A stretch of DNA of 64,000 bases from Acidobacteriota bacterium (lineage in GTDB: Bacteria > Acidobacteriota > Vicinamibacteria > Vicinamibacterales > JAKQTR01): assembly GCA_026393755.1 (NCBI GenBank), contig JAPKZO010000040.1, forward strand, positions 39,311 to 103,310. The letters are read 5' to 3'. Under the pieces are notes generated by a model, which saw only the letters and a list, made by a program, of their open reading frames with translations, did no database searches and had not been told where the DNA came from. Numbering within the stretch: position 1 is the stretch's first letter; each line of letters opens with the position of its first letter. The position numbers were made by a program, and so were the translations under genes. Shown one piece after another: positions 7,208-17,228 of the stretch.

Positions 7208-8454
7208 AACCAGAACGACAGTTGAACGCCGACCAGGGTGTCGCGGCGGATCTGCCCGCCGTCCCGCCAATGGCTCAACACGGACGACTTCAGCAGCAGC
7301 CCCCGGCGAATCGTGTATCCCAAGCCCAGTTCGACGCGCGAGACGTCCGCATCCCACGTCATGTCACCAGTCGACGTGCGGATCGACGAGAACCAGATGC
7401 GATCGGCGCGAGCCGCGACAAAGAGGCCTGGGCGCACGCGAACCCGCCCCTCCACGTAGCCTCCATGGGCGGCAAGCGGTTTCGTGATTGCCGGCGAGTC
7501 AATCGCCGGCACGGACCACTGGTTCACGACGAACTCACCGCGAACGAGCCACCGATCCCACGAGGTCTCGACATCGACGCCGACGGCCTGCTGGCGGCTG
7601 CTGGTGTCGCGAATGTCGGACCGCGTTGCGAGCACATCGCGGCCGAGCAGCGCGCCACGTGCGGCCGAGAGACCGACGCTCAGGGCGGGCAGGGGCCGCC
7701 AGGCGAGACGGCCTGCGAGCTGCCGACCGGCGTTGTCGTCTCTCACGACCGGATTCGAGAGCGTCCCAGCCGTGACGGCCACGGCCCCTTCGAGCGTCTG
7801 CGTACCGAATCGCGCCTGAATGCCGGTGTCCCAGCGCGACGCGGAGACAATCGGGAGCCCGCTATCCGCGTAGGCGTTTCCGACGGGATAGTGGACGGCC
7901 CATCCCCGGCCACGCATCCGGGCCAAGTCGTCGGCCGATGCAGGCACGGCATCGGCACGCATCGTCGTCAGATACTGGTAGACGAGCGGGACACCGATCA
8001 GCGGATTGTCCTGCGGATAATTGCGGCGCCCGTACGCGCCAAACACCGGAGGAATGCGGCCTGCCTGGATCGTCACCGCGCCGCTGTCGAGTGGATTGAG
8101 CCGGACGTACCACGCGTAGGGCCGTATCCCAAGACCGGTCTCGGCGCGCAGTTCCGCTAACAGGATCAGGCGGCGCGAGACCCGCGCTTCGACAGTCAGC
8201 CCGGCGTGCATCCGGCGCAGCGTGTCGGTTTCGTAATCGGCGTAGGTGAACCAGCCGGGATCGGCGCTGCCATAGGTGACCGATGCGTCACCGGCGACCA
8301 GCAGACGCCCGTCGAACAACGTCACTGGTTGCGTCGGCCAGGATTGAGCGAACGCGTCACCGGCGTGGACGCCGAGTGACGAGACGGCGACCAGCGCAGC
8401 CACTGCGAGCGGCCGAAGATAGCGCAACCGGAGCATGCGGGGTGCCTGATCCAT
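7204..8454 (-). CDS. putative outer-membrane beta-barrel/porin-like protein
   Basis: 416-aa ORF with a signal peptide (LAVAALVAVSSLGVHAGDAFAQ), alternating beta-strand-like sequence and C-terminal GVQLSFWL. It is the first gene of a 4-gene minus-strand unit with the cupredoxin-like, kinase and NtrC-family genes. Confidence 0.7.
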   Translation of the reverse strand: MDQAPRMLRLRYLRPLAVAALVAVSSLGVHAGDAFAQSWPTQPVTLFDGRLLVAGDASVTYGSADPGWFTYADYETDTLRRMHAGLTVEARVSRRLILLAELRAETGLGIRPYAWYVRLNPLDSGAVTIQAGRIPPVFGAYGRRNYPQDNPLIGVPLVYQYLTTMRADAVPASADDLARMRGRGWAVHYPVGNAYADSGLPIVSASRWDTGIQARFGTQTLEGAVAVTAGTLSNPVVRDDNAGRQLAGRLAWRPLPALSVGLSAARGALLGRDVLATRSDIRDTSSRQQAVGVDVETSWDRWLVRGEFVVNQWSVPAIDSPAITKPLAAHGGYVEGRVRVRPGLFVAARADRIWFSSIRTSTGDMTWDADVSRVELGLGYTIRRGLLLKSSVLSHWRDGGQIRRDTLVGVQLSFWL

Positions 8455-8475
8455 TCTATGTGAGAACGCGGGCGC

Positions 8476-8590
8476 GAGATAACCACTCCGGAGTGATTAC
8501 CTGGAAGCGTTTGCCTGCCTGGGCTGGCGATAATCACTCCGGGATTGATTAACTCGGGCTGGCGATAATCACTCCGGGAGAGTGATTATC
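8476..8590. repeat. palindromic repeat cluster A (3 copies)
   Basis: Copies at 8481-8499 (AACCACTCCGGAGTGATTA), 8531-8552 and 8566-8589. The last two sit in a tandem 35-bp unit (8521-8555 / 8556-8590) whose first 24 nt are identical. The stop codon (8586-8588) of the upstream gene lies inside the last copy. Confidence 0.9.
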
Positions 8591-9467
8591 TGTTGATGAC
8601 CGCGCGGAGGGCGCGGATGTGGGCGGGGGTGGTGCCGCAGCATCCGCCGATGATCTGCACGCCCGCGGCCAGCAGTTCAGATGCCCTCGACGCCACTTCG
8701 TCCGGCGTCTCGGGGTACACGGTGGCGCCGTGGCTGATGACGGGCAGGCCCGCGTTGGCCTGGATCGCGATGGGCACGCCGGCGTGTTGTTTGAACGCGC
8801 GCGCAATCTCGACCATCGTTTCGATGCCGAAGCCGCAGTTTGATCCCACGATGTCCGCGCCGGCGGCCTGCAGTCCATTGGCGGCGGCGGGAATCGAGAC
8901 GCCCATCACCGTGAAGAACCCGCGGCGCGTCTTCTCGAAAGTCATGGTGGCGAGGATCGGGACGCGTGGCGCCGCCGCGCGGATGGCCGCGACGGCCATC
9001 GTGGCTTCGTCGAGATCGGTCATCGTCTCGACGCAGAACAGGTCGACGCCCGCGCCGGCCAGCGCCGCCGCCTGTCGCTCGAACGCCGCCGCCATCTGCG
9101 CCGGGTCGGTGTTGCCGAACGGCAGCCGCAGCCGACCGGTCGGCCCCATCGAGGCCGAGACGTAGGCGCGGTCTCCCACCGCCCGGCGAACGGCCGCGAC
9201 GGCCTGGACATTAATCTCCTCAGCGCGGTCCGCGAGAGCGAATGACTCCAGCTTGAGCGGCGATCCGCCGAACGTGTTGGTGGTGATGATCTCGGCGCCC
9301 GCCTCGAGATACAGGGCGGCAATCGCTTCAATCACGTCGGGGCGGTCGAGATTGAACAGTTCCGGCGGTTCGCCGGCCCTCAGTCCGCGCTCCATCAGCA
9401 ACGTGCCCCAGGCCCCGTCGCCGAGGATCACCTCACCCCGCGCCAGCCGTTCGCGAATGTCATCCAT
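8586..9467 (-). CDS. homocysteine-binding S-methyltransferase domain protein (MetH N-terminal module-like)
   Basis: 293 aa. ILGDGAWGT, TTNTFGG and the Zn-ligand cysteines VGSNCGFG and IIGGCCGTTPAHI are typical of the Hcy-binding (S-methyl_trans) domain. Confidence 0.9.
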   Translation of the reverse strand: MDDIRERLARGEVILGDGAWGTLLMERGLRAGEPPELFNLDRPDVIEAIAALYLEAGAEIITTNTFGGSPLKLESFALADRAEEINVQAVAAVRRAVGDRAYVSASMGPTGRLRLPFGNTDPAQMAAAFERQAAALAGAGVDLFCVETMTDLDEATMAVAAIRAAAPRVPILATMTFEKTRRGFFTVMGVSIPAAANGLQAAGADIVGSNCGFGIETMVEIARAFKQHAGVPIAIQANAGLPVISHGATVYPETPDEVASRASELLAAGVQIIGGCCGTTPAHIRALRAVINR

Positions 9468-9473
9468 GCCGCG

Positions 9474-10106
9474 CTACCCCACCAGCGCGCGAGCGCGATC
9501 GACGGCGCTGGCGGCGTCGAACGCGTACGCGTCGGCGCCAATCTCCCGCGCGAAGTCGGCCGACACGGGCGCCCCGCCCACCATGATCTTCACAGACGAT
9601 CGCAGGCCGCGCGACGTGACGAGATCGACGACGTCCTTCATCACGGGCATGGTGGTGGTCAGCAGCGCGGACATGCCGATGATGGACGCACCGTTGGCGA
9701 CGGCGGCATCCACGAATGCCGGCGCGTGGACGTCGGCGCCGAGGTCAACCACCTCGAAGCCGGCTCCCTTCAGCATGATGCCGACCAGGTTCTTGCCGAT
9801 GTCGTGCAGATCGCCGTGCACCGATCCGATGACCACGGTCCCTCTGGTCGGAATGTTCGCCTTGAGCAGCAGCGGCTTTACCAGATCCATGCCGGCGTAC
9901 ATGGCCTTGGCGGCCAGCAGCACGTCGGGCAGGAAGATATCCCTCACGCGGAACTTCTCGCCGACCACGTTCATGCCGCCAATCAGTCCGCGGTCCAGGA
10001 TACGGGCGGGCGGCACGCCCGCATCAATGGCCTCGCGGGTCAGGTCGCGCACGCGCTCGTCGTTGCCCAGTTCGAGATGTTCAGCAATCTGCGCCAGAAT
10101 GTCCAT
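9474..10106 (-). CDS. corrinoid (cobalamin-binding) protein with B12-binding cap and Rossmann domains
   Basis: Start set at ATG 10106 (MDILAQIAEHL), preceded by GGAGAG 7 nt upstream. DxHxxG motif GDLHDIGKN, SALLTTT, MVGGAPV. Confidence 0.9.
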   Translation of the reverse strand: MDILAQIAEHLELGNDERVRDLTREAIDAGVPPARILDRGLIGGMNVVGEKFRVRDIFLPDVLLAAKAMYAGMDLVKPLLLKANIPTRGTVVIGSVHGDLHDIGKNLVGIMLKGAGFEVVDLGADVHAPAFVDAAVANGASIIGMSALLTTTMPVMKDVVDLVTSRGLRSSVKIMVGGAPVSADFAREIGADAYAFDAASAVDRARALVG

Positions 10107-10122
10107 CTGATCTCTCCACTCA

Positions 10123-10815
10123 TCATCGCACCGATCGCATGCGCGGCAGGCATTGCCGCGTGGTGCAGTTCGCACAAAACGAGAACTCGGGGCGGAACCG
10201 GTGAATCGGCGCGGCGCCCGCCACCAGCACGCCCGATACCGACTTGAGCGGCTGCATCAGGCAGCTCTCGTTGAGGCTGATCCCAATCTCGCCCGGCCCC
10301 AGCCGCTCAAACAGCTTGCGCTGTGCGCTGATGTGCCAGCCGCAGTAGCCGGGGCTGTATCCCAGCACGGCGGTTCCCCCGTCCGACACGCGCTCGCGGT
10401 ATCTGGCCGCCAGCCGATCGGCCAACAGATCGGAGGAGACCGACGCGACGGCATCGAGCACATAGCCGCGCGCCATGTCGTCGGCGGCAAACAACTCGGT
10501 GATCCGCGCGCTCACCCGCGCTCCCAGGGTGGCCACAAACAGCGCCAGCGAATCCGCCCGCGGGTAGATCCGCTCGAGCGGCGTCTCGTGACTGTTGCGG
10601 CCTTCGCCCGCATACACCAGGGCGAACGCCTCGGCAGTCACATCATCGACGAGGCCCGTGGGTTCGGCCAGCCGCTCGAACTCCGCGACGGCCGCCTCGA
10701 TCAGCGCATCGGTGCGCGTCGAGACGGGTGCCGGCGATCCCATCCCCATCCGATCGAGGACGTCGCCGCGCGGCGGCATCGCCTCGCCGATCGAGAATAC
10801 GACACGCTCTCTCAC
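10123..10815 (-). CDS. methionine-synthase activation (AdoMet-binding reactivation) domain-like protein
   Basis: 230 aa with a GTG start overlapping the mttB-family stop (GTGA). GYSPGYCGWHISAQ resembles the RPAPGYPACPEH segment of the MetH activation domain. ISLNESCLMQPLKSVSGV also resembles that family. Confidence 0.75.
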   Translation of the reverse strand: MRERVVFSIGEAMPPRGDVLDRMGMGSPAPVSTRTDALIEAAVAEFERLAEPTGLVDDVTAEAFALVYAGEGRNSHETPLERIYPRADSLALFVATLGARVSARITELFAADDMARGYVLDAVASVSSDLLADRLAARYRERVSDGGTAVLGYSPGYCGWHISAQRKLFERLGPGEIGISLNESCLMQPLKSVSGVLVAGAAPIHRFRPEFSFCANCTTRQCLPRMRSVR

Positions 10816-12272
10816 CGTTCGCGCGCCGGCAAGGCCGTCATGCCAAAGCGCCTGGCCTCGCGCTCCATCACCGCGGTCAGATCGCGCCGCGCCTGCTCCG
10901 ATACGCGCGACGGCGTGTAGCCGGCCAGCAGACGCGACACCTCCCGCACGGCCCGATCGCGCAGGGTCAGTCCCCCGTCTTCGAGCCAGCGCGCCTGGTT
11001 CGCCCGGTCAATCACCGGGCCAGGAAACGCGATCTGCTCGCGCAAGTGCCGGCGCGTGTGCTTCGCAATCAGCAGATGCTTCTCGCGCAGCAGTTCCTGG
11101 AACAGCGGCAGCGACGGGAAGTCCTCCCTCGGCTCGATGCCTCTCAGCAGCCGCGCGGTCATGCCGCAGATCTCGTTGTCGACCACGAGCTTCTCGAGGC
11201 TCTGGCAGCTCTCGAAATCGAGCATCCCCGGACCCGAGATGTTGTTGATCCCGGACAGCGCGGCCAGCACCGCGCCAATCCCGGTTTCGAGCCCCGCCTG
11301 CGCATCGAGTTGCTTGGCGTCACTCAGCGAGATGTAGCCCTGTGTGGGCAGGCCCAGCGACTTTCCAATCTCGCTGTTGGCGCAGTCGATCATCATCGTC
11401 TCGATCGCGCCCATCGGCGTGGTCTCGTACCGCACGTCGAAGATGGCCGGCGACCCGCCATAGAGGACCGGATGTCCGGGACTGGTCAGCTGGCTGATCA
11501 CGATCCCGCTCAACGTCTCGGCGGTCTGCTGGATGAGGCTGCCGACCAGTGTCACCGGCGCCATGAACCCGGAGAGCGGCATCGAAATGAACTCCACCGG
11601 GATCGACCACCGGGCGCAGTCGACCAGGTTCTGGCTCGTCACGTCGCTCCACTTGATGGGTGCGGTCGGGCAGCAGGAGAACACGGCCAGCGGCTTGTCC
11701 TTGAGCGCCTGCGCGCTGCCCCGAACGGCCAGCAGCAGGTCCTTCATCACCTCGAACGCCTCGATGGTGAAGGCGCCCGTGACCACGGGCTTTTCGCCGT
11801 AGAGCAGGCTGAGATAGAGACGGTAGCTGTCTGAGATCCGCTCGTGCACATCGCCGGGAATCAGGGCGGTGCTCTGTGACGCAATGTTCGGCAGGCCGCT
11901 GACCACCTTGGCGTACTTCACATAGTCGTCCGTGGTCGGCTTGCGGCTGGTGACGCCGTCCTGGTCGAGAACCTTGATGGCCGCTGATCCGGGCGTGAAA
12001 TAGACGTTGCTGCCGGCGAAATCGTGCGTCTGATTGCCGACGGCGTCATACAGCTTGAACGAGTGCGCCACGGTGCTGAGCGCACGATCGAGAATGTCAG
12101 GCGTGAGGCGCGCGTGCCACGCCTCCAGATTCACATCCGCGCCGTGGCCGGCCAGCATTTCCAGGATAGGCTTGTTGTGGATTTCGACGCCCAGCTTGCA
12201 GAGGATGTCGCGCGCCTCGCCAACGATGCGCTGGATCAACGTGTCGTCCAACAATCTCAAACTCGGTCTCAT
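10812..12272 (-). CDS. MttB-superfamily (trimethylamine methyltransferase family, non-pyrrolysine) methyltransferase
   Basis: Start set at ATG 12272 because AAGGAG lies 5 nt upstream (the ORF-track start 12347 would overlap the upstream gene's 3' end and its stop-abutting hairpin). Full-length similarity by eye to MttB/MtgB-type proteins (ISGPGMLD, VVDNEICG, YETTPMGA). No in-frame TAG. Confidence 0.9.
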   Translation of the reverse strand: MRPSLRLLDDTLIQRIVGEARDILCKLGVEIHNKPILEMLAGHGADVNLEAWHARLTPDILDRALSTVAHSFKLYDAVGNQTHDFAGSNVYFTPGSAAIKVLDQDGVTSRKPTTDDYVKYAKVVSGLPNIASQSTALIPGDVHERISDSYRLYLSLLYGEKPVVTGAFTIEAFEVMKDLLLAVRGSAQALKDKPLAVFSCCPTAPIKWSDVTSQNLVDCARWSIPVEFISMPLSGFMAPVTLVGSLIQQTAETLSGIVISQLTSPGHPVLYGGSPAIFDVRYETTPMGAIETMMIDCANSEIGKSLGLPTQGYISLSDAKQLDAQAGLETGIGAVLAALSGINNISGPGMLDFESCQSLEKLVVDNEICGMTARLLRGIEPREDFPSLPLFQELLREKHLLIAKHTRRHLREQIAFPGPVIDRANQARWLEDGGLTLRDRAVREVSRLLAGYTPSRVSEQARRDLTAVMEREARRFGMTALPARER

Positions 12273-12287
12273 GAGTCTCCTTTTCGC

Positions 12288-12307
12288 GGGCGCAATGCAT
12301 TGCGCCC
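12288..12307 (-). other. intercistronic perfect 20-nt palindrome
   Basis: GGGCGCAATGCATTGCGCCC lies directly after the TAG of the aminotransferase gene and 15 nt before the mttB-family start. Its outer arms match the hairpin at 3247-3266. Confidence 0.8.
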
Positions 12308-13441
12308 CTACAAACCCCTCTGCTGCGGGAACAGTCCCCTGTGCCACAGGAACGCCTCGACGGCGGCCAGGAATTCCGTCAGGTACTCCTCGCTGGTGGC
12401 TCTGCCGAGATGCCCCACGCGGAAGATCTTGCCAGCCAGGTCTCCAAGCCCCCCCGAGATCGCGATGTGCCGCTCATCGAGCAGCCACCCACTGAATTCC
12501 GACACCGTGAACTCGGGCCGCGCGTGAAACGCCGTGACCATCGGCGCAGAGCACGACTCGGCCACGTACGGCACAAACCCCATCCTGATCATGCCTTCGC
12601 GGACGCGGCGTCCGGCGCGGGCGTACTTCGCGAGGTGCGCCGGCATCCCGACGCGGGCAATCGCCCGCAGGCTGGTGAGGACGGCGAGCAGCGTATTCGA
12701 CGACACGGTGACCGGCGTCGGGTGCCACGCGCCCCACTCCTTCGCGTACTGGCGCCATGTCCTGAGGTTCAGGTACCACCCATGGCCGGCGCCAGGGTGG
12801 TCGTCGACCATCTCCCACGCCCGCGGGCTGACACTGATGAAACCGAGGCCGGCCGGCCCTTCGAGGCACTTGTTCGACGCCGTCACGCACACATCAATGC
12901 CCCACGCATCGACCGGAAGCTCCACGCCGCCGAGCGACGAGACCGCATCGACGACCACAACGCGTCCGGCCGCGCGTGCCGCCGCCGCCAGTTCGCGGAT
13001 CGGGTTCAAGACGGTCGTGGAGGTCTCGTGATGCGTGATGGCCACGACTCTGGCGTCCGGGTGCGCGTCGCACACCAGGCGCAACGCAGCAGGATCGAGC
13101 GGCTGGCCAATCGGCGCCTTCAGCGGCACGACATTCAGCGCATGCGCTTCGGCGATATCGGTCAGCCGGTCGCCAAAGAACCCGTTCTGGCCGACGATGA
13201 TCGACTGGCCGATGGGGAGGAGGCTGCCGATCGCCATGTCGAGCGCGGCCGAGCCTGGCCCCGGCACGATGAACAGATCGGCGCCGGTCCCGAAGATCTG
13301 CTTCAGCAGCGTCTGGGCTTCGCCATACGTTGCCTTCCACACGGGGCCGTAGTGACGCTGGACCGGCTGCCCCATCGCGGCGAGCACCTCGTCGTCCACA
13401 TCGCCCGGCCCCGGAATAAAGAGCTTTACGTGATCCGTCAT
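12308..13441 (-). CDS. class-V pyridoxal-phosphate aminotransferase (alanine-glyoxylate/serine-pyruvate family)
   Basis: 377 aa. LFIPGPGDV N-terminus, TASNKCLEGPAGLG (PLP-lysine context), DAVSSLGG. Confidence 0.85.
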   Translation of the reverse strand: MTDHVKLFIPGPGDVDDEVLAAMGQPVQRHYGPVWKATYGEAQTLLKQIFGTGADLFIVPGPGSAALDMAIGSLLPIGQSIIVGQNGFFGDRLTDIAEAHALNVVPLKAPIGQPLDPAALRLVCDAHPDARVVAITHHETSTTVLNPIRELAAAARAAGRVVVVDAVSSLGGVELPVDAWGIDVCVTASNKCLEGPAGLGFISVSPRAWEMVDDHPGAGHGWYLNLRTWRQYAKEWGAWHPTPVTVSSNTLLAVLTSLRAIARVGMPAHLAKYARAGRRVREGMIRMGFVPYVAESCSAPMVTAFHARPEFTVSEFSGWLLDERHIAISGGLGDLAGKIFRVGHLGRATSEEYLTEFLAAVEAFLWHRGLFPQQRGL

Positions 13442-14934
13442 TGGAGTATCCCGGGGGCCATTTCAGCGGGTCTTGCCACAACGGCGAGGGCGCCGCCCTC
13501 GCCAACGATGTAGAACTCGTCGGCCTTGATTGCCAGGCCCACCGGGCGATCGAGGCCGGGGATCGCATGCGCCGCCACCACGGCGTGCGTGGCGAGGTCG
13601 ATCGTCAGCAGTGTGCTGTATGCCGCACTGATCGCGTACAGGCGGCCGCCATCGACAGTGGCCCCCGTCACGTAGTACTCGTCGAGCGAACGCTTGTCGC
13701 CGCTCAACCGCAATCCGGCCTCCCCGGCCAGCGCCGGCATGAACTCCTCCGACAGGGTCAGATCGCGCCGGTCGAAGCGGGAGATCACCAGGCGCTTGAC
13801 CTTCGCATTTGGCACCGTCACAGTGTAAATCGACCTGGTCGCCGGATCGAAGGCGAGCGACATCGTGTACATCATCCGCGCGCGCACCGTCCCCAGACGG
13901 GACCGCGACACCTCGTCGAACCGGTCGAATGATTCCAGGAAGAACCGGAAGTTCTTGTCCGCGTCCGCCTGGTCGTTCTCGCGCAGCACCACGTAGCTCT
14001 TGTTCTCGCCGACCGCCATTACGATCTTGCGCTCGAGGAACGCGGCTCCTGCGAATCGACCCAGGTCGATAGAGAACCCCGGGTCGACCACTGTGTACCG
14101 CGCGATCCGTCCGAGCGAGCCATCAGTAATGTAGACCCCTGATTGCGTGGTCACGAGGAATCGATTGGTGGCCTGCTCGTACGCCAGATCAGTGACCGAG
14201 CCCCGCAGGGGCAGGGCCAGCGTGCGCTGCTCGCGAATCGGCAGCACAGGGAGGCTGGCAAGCGGACCGGCTGCCGGATCGGCCGGCAGGCCCGCCACGC
14301 CCGGCTTCTCAATTGCCCATCGACCGCGCAGCGACGCGGGTGCGGGCGACCACTCCTCGAGCGACCACACCCAGTGCCTCGGGGCGAAGGAGAAGCGGAT
14401 CGGATCGCTCTGGCCCATGTACGGCGGCGGCCCGGTGCTGGCGAACGCCTGAACGATGTTGCCTGCCACGACCACGAGAAAGACGCTGAAGGCGAGCGAT
14501 TCGAGTGGGCGCAGCGTGCGCGGTTCGGCTGGCGTCTCCCCTTCTCTCAGCAGCATCAGCAGCAGGCCCATGGTGACCGTGCAGACCCAGAAGATAAAGA
14601 GCGCCCAGGTGTAGGTGTGGGCGCCGAGGATTTCCAGGCTGAAGCCCTGTCCCACGTCGCGCGCCGCGTGCATCCCCGTGTGCCGCAGCCCCATGAAGAT
14701 GCCCCACGCGCCGAGCAGCACCGACAGTCCGAGGTACTTCGGCCGCGGTCCGTAGCGGAGTACGAACAGCCCCGTCAGCGCGACCAGCACCATGCCCGTG
14801 CGCTGTTCCCAGCACATCACGCACGGCGAGTCGCCGTACACGAACCCGAACAGGAAGACCGCCGCGCCGATCGGGATGAGCGACAGCACGAGGACGGCCA
14901 GCGCCAGCATCGAGTAGATCGCGTTGCGTCTCAC
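13438..14934 (-). CDS. DsbB-like membrane domain fused to a large periplasmic beta-rich domain
   Basis: GTG start with GGGAGGA 7 nt upstream. N-terminal TM bundle with SPCVMCWEQRTG (DsbB/BdbC-type CxxC). A fifth TM is followed by ~320 aa of Cys-free repetitive beta-strand-like sequence. ATGA overlap with the downstream aminotransferase gene. Confidence 0.8.
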   Translation of the reverse strand: MRRNAIYSMLALAVLVLSLIPIGAAVFLFGFVYGDSPCVMCWEQRTGMVLVALTGLFVLRYGPRPKYLGLSVLLGAWGIFMGLRHTGMHAARDVGQGFSLEILGAHTYTWALFIFWVCTVTMGLLLMLLREGETPAEPRTLRPLESLAFSVFLVVVAGNIVQAFASTGPPPYMGQSDPIRFSFAPRHWVWSLEEWSPAPASLRGRWAIEKPGVAGLPADPAAGPLASLPVLPIREQRTLALPLRGSVTDLAYEQATNRFLVTTQSGVYITDGSLGRIARYTVVDPGFSIDLGRFAGAAFLERKIVMAVGENKSYVVLRENDQADADKNFRFFLESFDRFDEVSRSRLGTVRARMMYTMSLAFDPATRSIYTVTVPNAKVKRLVISRFDRRDLTLSEEFMPALAGEAGLRLSGDKRSLDEYYVTGATVDGGRLYAISAAYSTLLTIDLATHAVVAAHAIPGLDRPVGLAIKADEFYIVGEGGALAVVARPAEMAPGILQ

Positions 14935-14952
14935 GCCGGATCCTCCCGCGTT

Positions 14953-15120
14953 CTAATAATTCACACCGGGCAGCATCCCGGTCCGGGTGGCCATCGAAAA
15001 GAGTCCCACCATCAGCAGCACGCTCAACACGAGGAGCCGGAAGGCGAGGCGCTCCTTCTCGGGCTTCCGGAAAATCAGGCGGGCCGTGATGAAGATGAGG
15101 ACGAAATTCAGAAATTCCAC
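14953..15120 (-). CDS. small hydrophobic protein (55 aa), first gene of the corrinoid operon
   Basis: GTG 15120 is preceded by AGGAGG with a 5-nt spacer. Product MEFLNFVLIFITARLIFRKPEKERLAFRLLVLSVLLMVGLFSM has two TM-like segments. The stop is 18 nt before the next gene. The rest of ORF 14953-15264 is an Arg-rich leader. Confidence 0.5.
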   Translation of the reverse strand: MEFLNFVLIFITARLIFRKPEKERLAFRLLVLSVLLMVGLFSMATRTGMLPGVNY

Positions 15121-15257
15121 GCGATCCTCCTGTGGCCTGGCGTCCCGGGGGGCTCGGGGCTCGCGTCTGGCGGGACGGCCGAGTCTATCAGCGGACGGCC
15201 CCGATCGGCAACGCGACGCGCTTGCCACCCCGCCGGGCGCGTGATACAAACGGCCCC

Positions 15258-15367
15258 TAATCACTCCCGGAGTGATTACAGGCGGGCTAATTACTCCCGG
15301 AGTGATTACGGTTTTGTAATTACTCCCGGAGTGATTGCAGGCGGGCTAATTACTCCGGGAGTGATTA
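15258..15367. repeat. palindromic repeat cluster B (4 copies, ~30-bp period)
   Basis: TAATCACTCCCGGAGTGATTA at 15258-15278. TAATTACTCCCGGAGTGATTA at 15288-15308. 15317-15336. 15347-15367 has the central base inverted. A 59-bp higher-order repeat is present (CAGGCGGGCTAATTACTCC occurs twice). The cluster lies in the divergent intergenic region. Confidence 0.95.
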
Positions 15368-15467
15368 TTCGGCCGACTCGCGTTGGGCGGGGACGCGGAG
15401 GAACCGTCGTCCGGCGGCCCGGAGCGTCTGCAGAAAGCAACAGCGAGGGATTCAGGAGAGAACAGAC

Positions 15468-17228
15468 ATGACACTGAAGAGGAAGTTGCTCGTTGTCGGG
15501 ATGACACTGGCAATGGCCGGCATGGCCGTCGCAGCCGCCGTCTCGGTTCGCGCCGCCGGAGAGTCCATCAACTACGGCGATCTCGCCAAGATCAAGGCCG
15601 AGGGCCTCCAGCGATCGCAGGTGATGGAGCTCTGCAGCTGGCTGTCGGATGTCTACGCGCCGCGCCTGACCGGTTCGCCGATGGCGCAGAAGGGCGCCGA
15701 CTGGACCGTCGCGAAGATGAAGGAGTTCGGCCTCACCAACGTGAAGATCGAGCCGTGGGTCAACCGGAACGGGTTTGAACGGGGATGGACCAACGACAAG
15801 TTCTACCTGGCATTCTCCTCGGCCGACGGGAAGTTCCCCATTCCCGGAACGCCAACCGCCTGGACGCCGGGCACCAAAGGACTGGTGACAGGCGGTGTCG
15901 TACTGGTCAGCGCCCCGAGGGAAGAGGAGTGGCTGGCATTCAAGGGCAAACTGCGTGGCAAGTGGATCCTGACCCAGGATGTGCCGGACGTCGCCGCCTA
16001 CTGGGATCCGATTGCGAAGCGGTATACGACCGAACAATTGCAGACCATGGAATTGCAGGCGGCGCCGGGGCCGGAGTTCGGCGTGACGCCTCCGGGCGGG
16101 GGCCGGGGAGGCCAGGTTGGCGCACCGGCGGCGGCGCAGCGCGGTGCGGCAGCCGCTCCCGCAGGCGCGCCAGCTAATGCCGCGCAGCCGGGGCCGATGC
16201 CTCGCAGCGGTCAGGCTGCAGCCGCAGCCCGCAACGCATTCTTCTTTGCCGAAGGTGCCCTCGGCACGATCTCGACGGCACCGCGCGGCCACGGCATCTA
16301 CACGATCGGCGGCAACCGCGCGGCCGATCCCGCGACCACGCTGCCGGCAATCGCGATCGATGCTGAGCACTACAACCGCATCGCCCGCATGCTGGCCAAG
16401 AATGTTGCGGTGACCATTGAGGCCGACATCACAAACACCTTCTATCCCAATCCGGCGGTCTTCAACATCGTCGGCGAGCTTCCGGGCACTGACAAGGCCG
16501 ACGAAATCGTGATGCTCGGGGGCCACTTCGACACGTGGCATGCGGCCACCGGCGCCACCGACGACAACGTGGGCGTGGCTGCGATGATGGAAGCGATGCG
16601 CATCCTGAAGGCCACCGGCGTCAAGCTGCGCCGCACGGTCCGCATCGGACTGTGGGAAGGCGAAGAGCAGGGCTTGCTCGGGTCGCGCGAGTACGTGTCG
16701 GCGCACTTCGCGAGCCGCGGAGCCGCACCGGCGGTCGCGGGCGCTCCTGCGGCCGGCGCCGCGCCAGCCGGCGGCGGGCGGGGCGGCCCGCTGGGCCCGC
16801 TCGAGTTCAAACCCGAGTACGACAAGTTCTCCGTCTACTTCAACATCGACAACGGCACCGGCGCCTTGCGCGGCGTGTATCTGCAGGGCAACGACGCGGT
16901 GGCGCCCATTTTCCGCGAGTGGATGGAGCCGTTCCGCGGGCTCGGCATGACGACGATCACGATTCGGAACACCGGCGGCACCGATCATCAGTCGTTTGAT
17001 GGCGTAGGGCTGCCAGGGTTCCAGTTCATCCAGGACGAGATCGAGTACAGCGCGATGACGCATCACACCAACCTGGATACGTACGAGCGGCTGCAGCCGA
17101 ACGATGTGACGAGGATGGCGACCATCGCCGCGGGCTTCGCGTATCTGGCAGCGAATCGCGACGAGAAGCTCCCGCGCAAGCCGATGCCGGCTCCGGGCCA
17201 GGGCGGCCGAGGACGGGGAGGACTGTAG
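15468..17228 (+). CDS. M28-family metallopeptidase (aminopeptidase), secreted
   Basis: AGGAGAG RBS and a signal peptide (VVGMTLAMAGMAVAAAVSVRA). Zn-ligand contexts LGGHFDTWHAATGATDDNVGVAAMMEA and GLWEGEEQGLLGS. Contains Ala/Gly/Pro-rich insertions. Confidence 0.9.
   Translation: MTLKRKLLVVGMTLAMAGMAVAAAVSVRAAGESINYGDLAKIKAEGLQRSQVMELCSWLSDVYAPRLTGSPMAQKGADWTVAKMKEFGLTNVKIEPWVNRNGFERGWTNDKFYLAFSSADGKFPIPGTPTAWTPGTKGLVTGGVVLVSAPREEEWLAFKGKLRGKWILTQDVPDVAAYWDPIAKRYTTEQLQTMELQAAPGPEFGVTPPGGGRGGQVGAPAAAQRGAAAAPAGAPANAAQPGPMPRSGQAAAAARNAFFFAEGALGTISTAPRGHGIYTIGGNRAADPATTLPAIAIDAEHYNRIARMLAKNVAVTIEADITNTFYPNPAVFNIVGELPGTDKADEIVMLGGHFDTWHAATGATDDNVGVAAMMEAMRILKATGVKLRRTVRIGLWEGEEQGLLGSREYVSAHFASRGAAPAVAGAPAAGAAPAGGGRGGPLGPLEFKPEYDKFSVYFNIDNGTGALRGVYLQGNDAVAPIFREWMEPFRGLGMTTITIRNTGGTDHQSFDGVGLPGFQFIQDEIEYSAMTHHTNLDTYERLQPNDVTRMATIAAGFAYLAANRDEKLPRKPMPAPGQGGRGRGGL

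What the first reader, a model, noticed from the sequence alone, without database searches (positions are those of the whole stretch)
13438..14934. DsbB-like domain lacking the second cysteine pair, fused to a Cys-free periplasmic domain inside a cytoplasmic methyl-transfer operon
Seen: the N-terminal four-helix region carries a DsbB/BdbC-type SPCVMCWEQR motif. The second periplasmic loop (HTGMHAARDVGQGFSLEILGAHT) has no cysteines. A fifth TM helix places a ~320-aa beta-rich C-terminal domain in the periplasm, and that domain contains no cysteine at all. The gene is translationally coupled (ATGA at 13438-13441) to a cytoplasmic aminotransferase and preceded by a 55-aa TM peptide. A quinone-linked thiol oxidase scaffold with only one redox pair and no obvious thiol substrate is unexpected here. 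It could be a quinone/redox-coupled sensor, a substrate-capture module for the unknown methyl donor, or an electron route for corrinoid reactivation.
Basis: partly seen in the sequence, partly recalled or inferred. Interest (0 to 1): 0.55.

Follow-up and report, generated by a model that had tools for sequence, protein, structure and literature searches.

The report
DsbI–Dba membrane redox pair
The gene is an acidobacterial copy of DsbI, a known atypical disulfide-bond membrane protein with one cysteine pair and a periplasmic propeller, sitting beside its known small partner Dba; its place next to the methyl-transfer genes is confined to one genus and probably has no functional meaning.

Summary
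Window 13438-14934 (minus strand) encodes a 498-aa protein with five TM helices, a PCVMCWEQR motif, no cysteine in the second periplasmic loop, and a Cys-free beta-rich periplasmic domain. A 55-aa membrane peptide precedes it, and it overlaps a class-V aminotransferase gene by ATGA.

The architecture is not unexpected. It is the published definition of the DsbI family (Raczko 2005; PMC4460558), and the peptide is its accessory protein Dba (PMC3167755). NCBIfam models for both match. The protein is 39% identical over 463 aa to H. pylori DsbI.

Of 73 related loci, 68 keep dba, none has MttB or corrinoid genes, and only one has the aminotransferase. The four-gene methyl-transfer cassette stands elsewhere, without dsbI, in five other genera.

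New here:
- The propeller is closest in fold to five-bladed type-I glutaminyl cyclases and YjiK (Z 21-22, against 15 or less for other propellers), but no sequence homology could be shown.
- A complex model supports Dba packing against TM2/3/5 next to the CXXC (score 0.74, best control 0.00).
- The genome also has a VKOR-thioredoxin fusion, so DsbI is probably a separate, specialised redox branch.

What DsbI acts on is unknown in any organism. Verdict: a new member of a known kind, of modest interest.

The parts
14953..15120 (-). dba: 55-aa accessory peptide with two short TM helices. Termini MEFLN... and ...LPGxNY are invariant across relatives.
   Evidence: NCBIfam NF050061 Dba, E 3.6e-12, profile positions 2-54 of 55, below the equivalog cut-off. 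Directly upstream of dsbI in 68 of 73 related loci. Alignment A2. Complex model with DsbI: ipSAE 0.74, best control 0.00.
13438..14934 (-). dsbI: 498-aa DsbI-family protein
   Evidence: NCBIfam NF050065 DsbI, E 1.7e-94, residues 5-477 on profile 6-488 of 498 (317 bits, equivalog cut-off 800). 39% identity over 463 aa to the H. pylori DsbI cluster representative P0133, E 3e-106.
14434..14934 (-). N-terminal DsbB-like five-helix membrane domain (residues 1-167)
   Evidence: Pfam PF02600 DsbB, E 2.5e-12, residues 9-90. AF2 helices at 3-32, 39-61, 65-90, 107-128 and 143-167.
14812..14823 (-). CVMC redox motif (C38-C41); the conserved Arg45 follows
   Evidence: Sequence. C38 is invariant; C41 and R45 are kept in at least 90% of 31 family representatives. 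PCxxCxxxR is present in 71 of 74 locus-encoded copies.
14251..14433 (-). Conserved post-TM5 linker (residues 168-228; GPPP, PxR, W190). Residues 199-204 are modelled with low confidence.
   Evidence: Alignment A1. pLDDT. Residues 167-174 and 194-206 touch Dba in the complex model.
13465..14250 (-). Periplasmic Cys-free beta-propeller (residues 229-490), five-bladed by its best structural matches
   Evidence: AF2 pLDDT is mostly above 90. VIA-align: type-I glutaminyl cyclases 3mbr, 2iwa, 3nol, 2faw, 3nok and YjiK 3qqz give Z 20.7-22.0, rmsd 2.7-3.2 over 213-223 residues; the next propellers give Z 15.4 or less.
13438..13441 (-). ATGA stop/start overlap between dsbI and the class-V aminotransferase gene
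   Evidence: ORF coordinates and sequence. The same 4-nt overlap is in the nearest relative, L001.
12308..13441 (-). Context only: class-V aminotransferase. It lies downstream of dsbI in this genus only.
   Evidence: Pfam PF00266. Found next to dsbI in L001 and L082 (same genus) and in none of the other 72 of the 73 loci.
8586..12272 (-). Context only, not part of the DsbI system: four-gene methyl-transfer cassette (MttB-family, MetH-activation-like, corrinoid protein, homocysteine S-methyltransferase).
   Evidence: Pfam and NCBIfam. The same four genes occur in the same order, without dsbI, dba or the aminotransferase, in five other genera (L083-L087). MttB was not found in the same-genus genome G001, where the aminotransferase is followed directly by the 416-aa gene.

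Best explanation
dba and dsbI encode a two-subunit inner-membrane thiol-disulfide oxidoreductase of the DsbI family. The five-helix DsbB-like domain holds one redox-active pair (C38-C41) next to Arg45 at the periplasmic membrane face. In DsbB this is the pair that exchanges electrons with membrane quinone. No second, shuttle cysteine pair exists, so the client must reach the CXXC directly. The Cys-free five-bladed propeller above the membrane most likely acts as the docking platform that selects this client, probably a periplasmic thioredoxin-fold protein or a small set of proteins. Dba, a helical hairpin, packs against TM2, TM3, TM5 and the post-TM5 linker beside the CXXC, and stabilises or completes the site. 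This genome has a VKOR-thioredoxin fusion that can do general disulfide formation, so DsbI-Dba is probably a separate, specialised branch, as it is in Campylobacter, which also keeps DsbB. Its position upstream of the aminotransferase and the MttB/corrinoid cassette is a genus-specific juxtaposition of independent modules. Co-transcription is likely; a shared function is not. Shown: family membership, architecture, dba linkage, and lack of conserved linkage to corrinoid genes. Inferred: quinone coupling, the direction of electron flow, the docking role of the propeller, and the identity of the client.
For: Family: NF050065 and NF050061 match. 39% identity over 463 aa to H. pylori DsbI. The published DsbI definition is matched point by point: 5 TM, CXXC plus Arg, no second Cys pair, periplasmic beta-propeller, dba upstream with translational coupling. 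Conservation: C38 is invariant; C41, R45 and H85 are nearly invariant; no loop-2 Cys in 31 of 31 representatives. Structure: AF2 pLDDT 88.3, pTM 0.85. Dba: upstream in 68 of 73 loci. The complex model supports binding but does not show it: ipSAE 0.74, best of 3 controls 0.00, a mark reached by 58 of 80 solved complexes and 2 of 110 mismatched pairs (counts hold only roughly, own alignments used); runs agree in at least 97% of contacts; partner pLDDT at least 89. No solved DsbI structure was found by sequence search, so this pass is unlikely to come from memory. Separate branch: this is the only DsbB-family gene in a 100%-complete genome, but a VKOR-Trx fusion and two DsbA-like proteins are present. 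Independence from the methyl-transfer genes. Experiments in the literature: loss of H. pylori DsbI partly reduces HP0231/DsbK (PMC4460558); Dba is needed for DsbI translation and stability (PMC3167755).
Against: No DsbI has a demonstrated substrate or direction of electron flow. C. jejuni DsbI does not appear to serve DsbA1 or DsbA2, its mutant is the most peroxide-sensitive dsb mutant, and recent papers place it in a reductive or stress pathway (PMC7089426, PMC12428200). The score against the Campylobacter DsbI model is far below its equivalog cut-off (317 against 800 bits), so identical function cannot be assumed. No partner gene is conserved next to dba-dsbI. Neither DsbA-like gene of this genome tracks DsbI across relatives. 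Three divergent family members have CxxS or CxxG, so some chemistry in the family may need only Cys38. The 4-nt overlap with the aminotransferase means expression in this genome really is tied to the downstream operon.
Confidence: 0.6

Rival explanations
1. One reading: the protein works with the methyl-transfer operon as a quinone/redox-coupled sensor, a periplasmic capture module for the unknown methyl donor, or an electron route for corrinoid reactivation.
For: dsbI overlaps the aminotransferase start by 4 nt. No terminator-like site lies between dsbI and the cassette; there is only a 20-nt palindrome without a T run between the aminotransferase and mttB. The same order is kept in a second species of the genus (L082).
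Against: MttB, corrinoid and Hcy-methyltransferase genes were found in none of the 73 loci, the same-genus L001 included. DsbI occurs in 21 of 21 genomes of the same taxonomic family, and MttB orthologues in only 10 of 21; where both exist outside this genus they are on other contigs or about 1 Mb apart. The cassette is complete and in the same order without dsbI, dba or the aminotransferase in five genera. It carries its own MetH-type activation-domain protein for corrinoid reactivation. DsbI homologues occur in H. pylori, Aggregatibacter and Photobacterium.
Confidence: 0.04
2. DsbI-Dba works in the reductive direction or in oxidative-stress defence. It would use the quinol pool, or a single reactive Cys38, to reduce sulfenylated or otherwise peroxide-damaged periplasmic clients held by the propeller, rather than generate disulfides.
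For: The C. jejuni dsbI mutant is the most peroxide-sensitive dsb mutant and is not copper-sensitive; the authors assign it to a separate reductive pathway (PMC7089426; PMC12428200). The genome already has VKOR-Trx for oxidation. C38 is invariant while C41 is replaced by Ser or Gly in three divergent members.
Against: The DsbB-type features (CXXC followed by Arg) are those of a quinone-reducing disulfide generator; this rests on established knowledge of DsbB. Loss of H. pylori DsbI shifts DsbK towards the reduced form, which means DsbI acts as an oxidant there (PMC4460558). No biochemical data exist for either direction.
Confidence: 0.25
3. The propeller is itself an enzyme related to five-bladed glutaminyl cyclases or YjiK-type proteins, and the DsbB-like domain only anchors or regulates it.
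For: Type-I glutaminyl cyclases and YjiK are the best structural matches, 5-7 Z units above all other propellers. The propeller carries invariant polar residues: K312, T349, D391 and E397, with R344, R351 and D284 nearly invariant.
Against: Profile-profile comparison with a glutaminyl cyclase alignment gives probability 19% over one out-of-register blade. Pfam Glu_cyclase_2 appears in 1 of 31 members at E 0.083. The cyclase motifs conserved in A3 (GEGWG, SDG, NELE, NGIA) have no counterpart in A1. The CXXC and Arg are conserved as strongly as the propeller.
Confidence: 0.08

Closest known systems
DsbI of Helicobacter pylori (HP0595) and Campylobacter jejuni (Cj0017c), with Dba (Cj0018c); NCBIfam NF050065 and NF050061; Raczko et al. 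2005, doi 10.1099/mic.0.27483-0
   Same: Full-length homology: 39% identity over 463 aa to the H. pylori protein. Five TM helices, CXXC plus Arg in loop 1, no Cys pair in loop 2, a C-terminal periplasmic beta-propeller, and a 55-aa Dba gene directly upstream.
   Different: The host is a free-living Acidobacteriota lineage. The score is below the equivalog cut-off (317 against 800 bits). The genome has a VKOR-Trx fusion rather than DsbB or a DsbK-type dimer, and no DsbC_N domain was found. In this genus the pair is fused into an operon with cytoplasmic genes.
Classical DsbB (E. coli), Pfam PF02600
   Same: Helices 1-3 match the family model. CVMCWEQR corresponds to E. coli CVLCIYER with the quinone-linked Arg48 (E. 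coli motif from my own knowledge).
   Different: It lacks the Cys104-Cys130 shuttle pair that takes electrons from DsbA, and it has a fifth helix and a roughly 330-aa periplasmic extension. It is not a classical DsbB.
DsbI of uropathogenic E. coli and Salmonella (partner of DsbL, for arylsulfate sulfotransferase)
   Same: The name, and the DsbB-family membrane domain.
   Different: By my own knowledge of Grimshaw et al. 2008 (cited in PMC4460558), that DsbI is an ordinary DsbB paralogue without a propeller. It is a different protein with the same name.
Type-I (plant/bacterial) glutaminyl cyclases, five-bladed propellers (PDB 3mbr, 2iwa, 3nol, 3nok), and the YjiK C-terminal domain (3qqz)
   Same: Closest fold for residues 225-497: Z 20.7-22.0, rmsd 2.7-3.2 A over 213-223 residues.
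   Different: Identity is 12-19%, no significant profile match was found, and the cyclase signature motifs are not present. The shared fold shows no shared function.
VKOR-thioredoxin fusions
   Same: A membrane quinone-linked CXXC enzyme fused through an extra TM helix to its periplasmic partner domain. One is encoded elsewhere in this genome.
   Different: In VKOR-Trx the fused domain carries its own CXXC and is the electron donor. In DsbI the fused domain has no cysteine.

Membership tests
DsbI family (Campylobacterota-type DsbI) | N-terminal DsbB-like membrane domain | tested here: met
   Pfam PF02600, 47.8 bits against a cut-off of 22.1, residues 9-90.
DsbI family (Campylobacterota-type DsbI) | CXXC and conserved Arg in the first periplasmic loop | tested here: met
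   C38-V-M-C41 and R45. Conserved in the family alignment.
DsbI family (Campylobacterota-type DsbI) | No second cysteine pair in the second periplasmic loop | tested here: met
   No Cys in residues 91-106. The same holds in 31 of 31 representatives.
DsbI family (Campylobacterota-type DsbI) | Fifth TM helix followed by a periplasmic beta-propeller | tested here: met
   AF2 model with helix 143-167 and an all-beta domain at 229-490. All top structural matches are propellers. The periplasmic location is inferred from topology and was not measured.
DsbI family (Campylobacterota-type DsbI) | Full-length sequence homology to an experimentally studied DsbI | tested here: met
   39% identity over 463 aa, E 3e-106, to the H. 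pylori cluster representative. NF050065 E 1.7e-94 over the full length, but 317 bits is below the 800-bit equivalog cut-off. This makes it a family member, not a certified equivalog.
DsbI family (Campylobacterota-type DsbI) | dba accessory gene immediately upstream | tested here: met
   NF050061 E 3.6e-12. The gene ends 18 nt before the dsbI start. Conserved in 68 of 73 loci.
DsbI family (Campylobacterota-type DsbI) | Thiol-disulfide oxidoreductase activity linked to quinone | not testable with these tools
   Needs biochemistry. It has not been shown for any DsbI in the papers read.
Classical DsbB | Second periplasmic Cys pair (E. coli C104/C130) that oxidises DsbA | tested here: not met
   No Cys in loop 2.
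Type-I glutaminyl cyclase (Pfam PF05096) | Five-bladed propeller fold | tested here: met
   Z 20.7-22.0 to 3mbr, 2iwa, 3nol, 2faw and 3nok.
Type-I glutaminyl cyclase (Pfam PF05096) | Sequence or profile homology and the family's conserved motifs | tested here: not met
   hhalign probability 19%, 70 columns, out of register. PF05096 matched in 1 of 31 members at E 0.083.
   0 of 73 loci. The cassette is found without dsbI in five genera. Adjacency is limited to two species of one genus.

The most novel reading that the evidence does not exclude
Dba-DsbI is not a back-up DsbB. It would be a distinct, ancient two-subunit quinone-linked redox machine, kept in every sampled genome of this acidobacterial family alongside VKOR-Trx. 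Its glutaminyl-cyclase-like five-bladed propeller would present a non-DsbA client, for example peroxide-damaged (sulfenylated) envelope proteins, directly to a single essential Cys38. The environmental homologues, 65-75% identical across Acidobacteriota and Gemmatimonadota, would then give a tractable route to the still unknown function of the Helicobacter and Campylobacter colonisation factor.
Probability: 0.2. Interest if true: 0.55.

Novelty: new member of a known kind. Interest (0 to 1): 0.25.

Why it matters
Mostly it removes a false lead. The odd "one-pair DsbB plus Cys-free domain" is a described family, and its place in a methyl-transfer operon is limited to one genus. Three smaller points have some value.

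- DsbI-Dba is widespread and strongly conserved in soil Acidobacteriota and Gemmatimonadota, where public records call it plain DsbB. The literature I read treats it as a Campylobacterota speciality.
- The propeller is most like five-bladed glutaminyl cyclases and YjiK.
- A confident model places Dba against TM2/3/5 beside the CXXC, which gives a concrete hypothesis for why DsbI is unstable without Dba.

The function of DsbI, a colonisation factor in H. pylori and C. jejuni, is still open.

Tried and rejected
- Conserved-neighbour search. ORFs were called by GC3 in 73 loci and clustered. No family other than Dba recurs in more than 15 loci. The recurrent ones are unrelated housekeeping genes that reflect synteny within clades: MacAB-type transporter parts, heme A synthase CtaA, MscS, EF-P, SDR, FabH.
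- Phyletic test for a redox partner. Orthologues of the genome's two DsbA-like proteins (CPYC on contig 7, CSHC on contig 34) do not follow DsbI presence or absence in 41 relatives. Paralogues blur the picture, so this is inconclusive. In one genus the CPYC orthologue lies 19-29 kb from dsbI, which I take as synteny only.
- DsbC_N (PF10411): no match in the genome.
- Solved structures by sequence: no DsbI, only weak single-blade matches.
- Foldseek on the whole model: a flat list of generic WD40/G-beta hits. Only re-alignment with VIA-align separated the five-bladed group.
- Homology to glutaminyl cyclase by hhalign: not supported.
- ESM Atlas features for residues 205-498: only scores of 0.88 or less to assorted small propellers, which are leads at best.
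- Promoter and terminator scan of 8300-15500: no sigma-70-like site, and one terminator-like hit inside dsbI, fewer than in shuffles. A sigma-54-like TGGCA...TTGC upstream of dba has the wrong spacing (by eye).
- I could not get model coordinates, so I could not check whether the invariant propeller residues face the CXXC.
Full report
**What is there.** The finding lies on the minus strand. The ORF 13438-14934 starts at GTG behind a GGGAGGA ribosome-binding site and encodes 498 aa. Residues 37-45 read PCVMCWEQR. The only cysteines are C38, C41 and C118, and C118 lies within the fourth helix. The stop codon overlaps the ATG of a class-V aminotransferase gene (12308-13441) as ATGA. A 55-aa ORF (14953-15120) with its own AGGAGG ends 18 nt before the start.

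**What it is.** Pfam finds only a DsbB domain on residues 9-90. NCBIfam matches the whole protein to NF050065, 'disulfide bond formation protein DsbI' (E 1.7e-94, residues 5-477 on profile 6-488 of 498). It matches the small ORF to NF050061, 'disulfide bond formation protein Dba' (E 3.6e-12, profile 2-54 of 55). Both scores are below the strict equivalog cut-offs.

A search of 1.8 billion cluster representatives returns a compact family: 75 clusters at E 1e-30 or better. One representative is the H. pylori protein, which is 39% identical over 463 aa, E 3e-106. Others come from Aggregatibacter, Photobacterium, Salmonella/E. coli and Sutterella.

[quoted passage not shown] 2005). Dba is the known accessory protein. 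Its translation is required for dsbI translation, and DsbI is degraded without it (PMC3167755). The scaffold is therefore known, and the missing cysteines are a family trait. None of 31 diverse members has a Cys in loop 2, and the propeller is Cys-free in most.

**Structure.** An AF2 model built on a 31-sequence alignment is confident (pLDDT 88.3, pTM 0.85). It shows helices at 3-32, 39-61, 65-90, 107-128 and 143-167, a partly uncertain linker, and an all-beta domain at 229-490. Foldseek gives an undifferentiated list of propellers. Re-alignment with VIA-align separates one group clearly. The five-bladed type-I glutaminyl cyclases (3mbr, 2iwa, 3nol, 2faw, 3nok) and the YjiK C-terminal domain (3qqz) score Z 20.7-22.0, with rmsd 2.7-3.2 A over 213-223 residues. 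Every other propeller scores 15.4 or less.

This is a fold resemblance only. A profile-profile comparison with glutaminyl cyclases from related genomes gives 19% probability over one out-of-register blade. Pfam Glu_cyclase_2 appears in one of 31 members at E 0.083. The papers I read call the domain a beta-propeller and say no more about it, so the five-bladed, cyclase-like assignment may be new. I did not read Raczko et al. 2005 itself.

**Dba.** In 26 relatives Dba is a two-helix hairpin with invariant termini (MEF.N... and ...LP..NY) and a basic RKPEKER turn. A complex prediction with controls supports binding but does not show it:
- ipSAE 0.74 (three runs: 0.74-0.76), against 0.00 for the best of three controls.
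- This mark was reached by 58 of 80 solved complexes and 2 of 110 mismatched pairs. The counts hold only roughly because my own alignments were used.
- The runs agree in at least 97% of contacts, and the partner's pLDDT is at least 89.

Dba touches DsbI residues 39-61 (TM2, starting right at the CXXC), 66-91 (TM3), 149-167 (TM5), and 167-174 and 194-206 of the linker. No solved DsbI structure turned up in the sequence search, so the pass is unlikely to be recalled from a known complex.

**The link to the methyl-transfer operon.** Downstream of dsbI lie these genes:
- the aminotransferase;
- an MttB-family methyltransferase;
- a protein with a MetH activation-domain match;
- an MtgC-like corrinoid protein;
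- a homocysteine S-methyltransferase.

I fetched 73 loci encoding relatives (51-84% identical) from Acidobacteriota, Vicinamibacterales and Gemmatimonadota genomes, with up to 10 kb on each side. Dba is directly upstream in 68 of them. MttB, the activation-domain protein and the corrinoid protein are found in none, and the only homocysteine-methyltransferase hit is a weak partial one (34% over 149 aa) about 9 kb away in L001. The aminotransferase appears only in L001, the nearest relative.

In L001 the aminotransferase is followed directly by the 416-aa gene, the 283-aa gene, the histidine kinase and the sigma-54 regulator. In the window these come after the cassette. Relative to each other, the two genomes therefore differ by presence or absence of the four-gene cassette.

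Across 41 related genomes, DsbI is present in 21 of 21 of the same family and in 2 of 19 genomes from the order's other families. MttB orthologues are present in 10 of 21 of the same family. The two are adjacent only in the window's genome and one congener. In five other genera the cassette occurs in the same gene order with no dsbI, dba or aminotransferase next to it.

The wider neighbourhood of dba-dsbI is variable. In about half of the loci the next called ORF is on the opposite strand, and no family other than Dba recurs in more than 15 loci. Co-transcription in this genus remains likely, given the ATGA overlap and the absence of a terminator-like site between the genes.

**Place in the cell's redox system.** The genome (100% complete by marker genes) has this single DsbB-family gene. 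It also has a VKOR domain followed in the same open frame by a thioredoxin-like domain, two DsbA-like proteins with CPYC and CSHC motifs, and no DsbC_N domain. General disulfide formation can thus be covered by VKOR-Trx, and DsbI looks like an additional branch, as in C. jejuni, which keeps DsbB as well. I could not identify its partner. The two DsbA-like genes do not track DsbI across relatives.

**How it probably works.**
- Shown: family membership, architecture and the Dba association.
- Inferred from established DsbB mechanism: the C38-C41 pair next to R45, and the nearly invariant H85 at the periplasmic end of TM3, exchange electrons with membrane quinone.
- Inferred from anatomy: without a shuttle pair, a client must reach the CXXC directly, and the Cys-free propeller is the obvious selector.
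- Open: the direction of electron flow. The H. pylori data point to oxidation of DsbK (PMC4460558). The C. jejuni data (peroxide sensitivity, no interplay with DsbA1/2) led its investigators to a reductive or stress role (PMC7089426, PMC12428200).

I put 0.6 on the specialised quinone-linked thiol-disulfide oxidoreductase reading as a whole, with the oxidase direction favoured only slightly. Three divergent members with CxxS or CxxG but an invariant first Cys show that chemistry needing a single Cys is possible in this family.

**Verdict.** The operon-based functional ideas are not supported. It is a new, environmentally widespread member of a known kind whose biochemical function is unsolved everywhere.

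Noticed in passing
window 8586-12272 (minus); L083-L087: The four genes MttB-family, MetH-activation-like, corrinoid protein and homocysteine S-methyltransferase form a self-contained cassette. It is conserved in order in five other genera (MttB 66-73% identical), which fits a corrinoid-dependent route from an unknown methyl donor to methionine. MttB was not found in the congener G001 (99% complete).
   Followed up: partly
window 15258-15367 and 8497-8590: Clusters of a 21-nt palindrome (TAATCACTCCCGGAGTGATTA and variants) lie upstream of dba (4 copies) and just after the homocysteine methyltransferase stop (3 copies), so they bracket the whole dba-to-HcyMT gene string.
   Followed up: partly
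window 12288-12307: A perfect 20-nt palindrome, GGGCGCAATGCATTGCGCCC, lies between the aminotransferase stop and the mttB ribosome-binding site, with no T run. This is the junction between the dsbI-aminotransferase unit and the cassette.
   Followed up: no
P0212, P0214, P0217 (family representatives; a Sutterella record is in the P0212 cluster): A divergent DsbI-like subgroup keeps the first Cys but has Ser or Gly in place of the second (PCTMSG, PCVMSG, PCEMGG). One member also lacks the Arg.
   Followed up: no
G000 contig C4:30966-32057 (L077, L081): A VKOR domain and a thioredoxin-like domain share one 426-aa open frame. This is the likely main disulfide-generating enzyme of the genome.
   Followed up: partly
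G029:C19:49903-51360: The DsbI homologue of one genome from another family of the order (57% identical) lies in a 1703-aa open frame. This could be a fusion, or only a long open frame in GC-rich DNA.
   Followed up: no
window 15468-17228 (plus): A 586-aa M28-family peptidase is transcribed divergently from dba. The equally long minus-strand ORF 15306-17066 is a shadow frame with no family match.
   Followed up: partly
L011, L012, L014, L016, L031, L032 and others: In about ten related loci a heme A synthase (COX15/CtaA) gene sits just upstream of dba-dsbI. I read this as clade-specific synteny.
   Followed up: no
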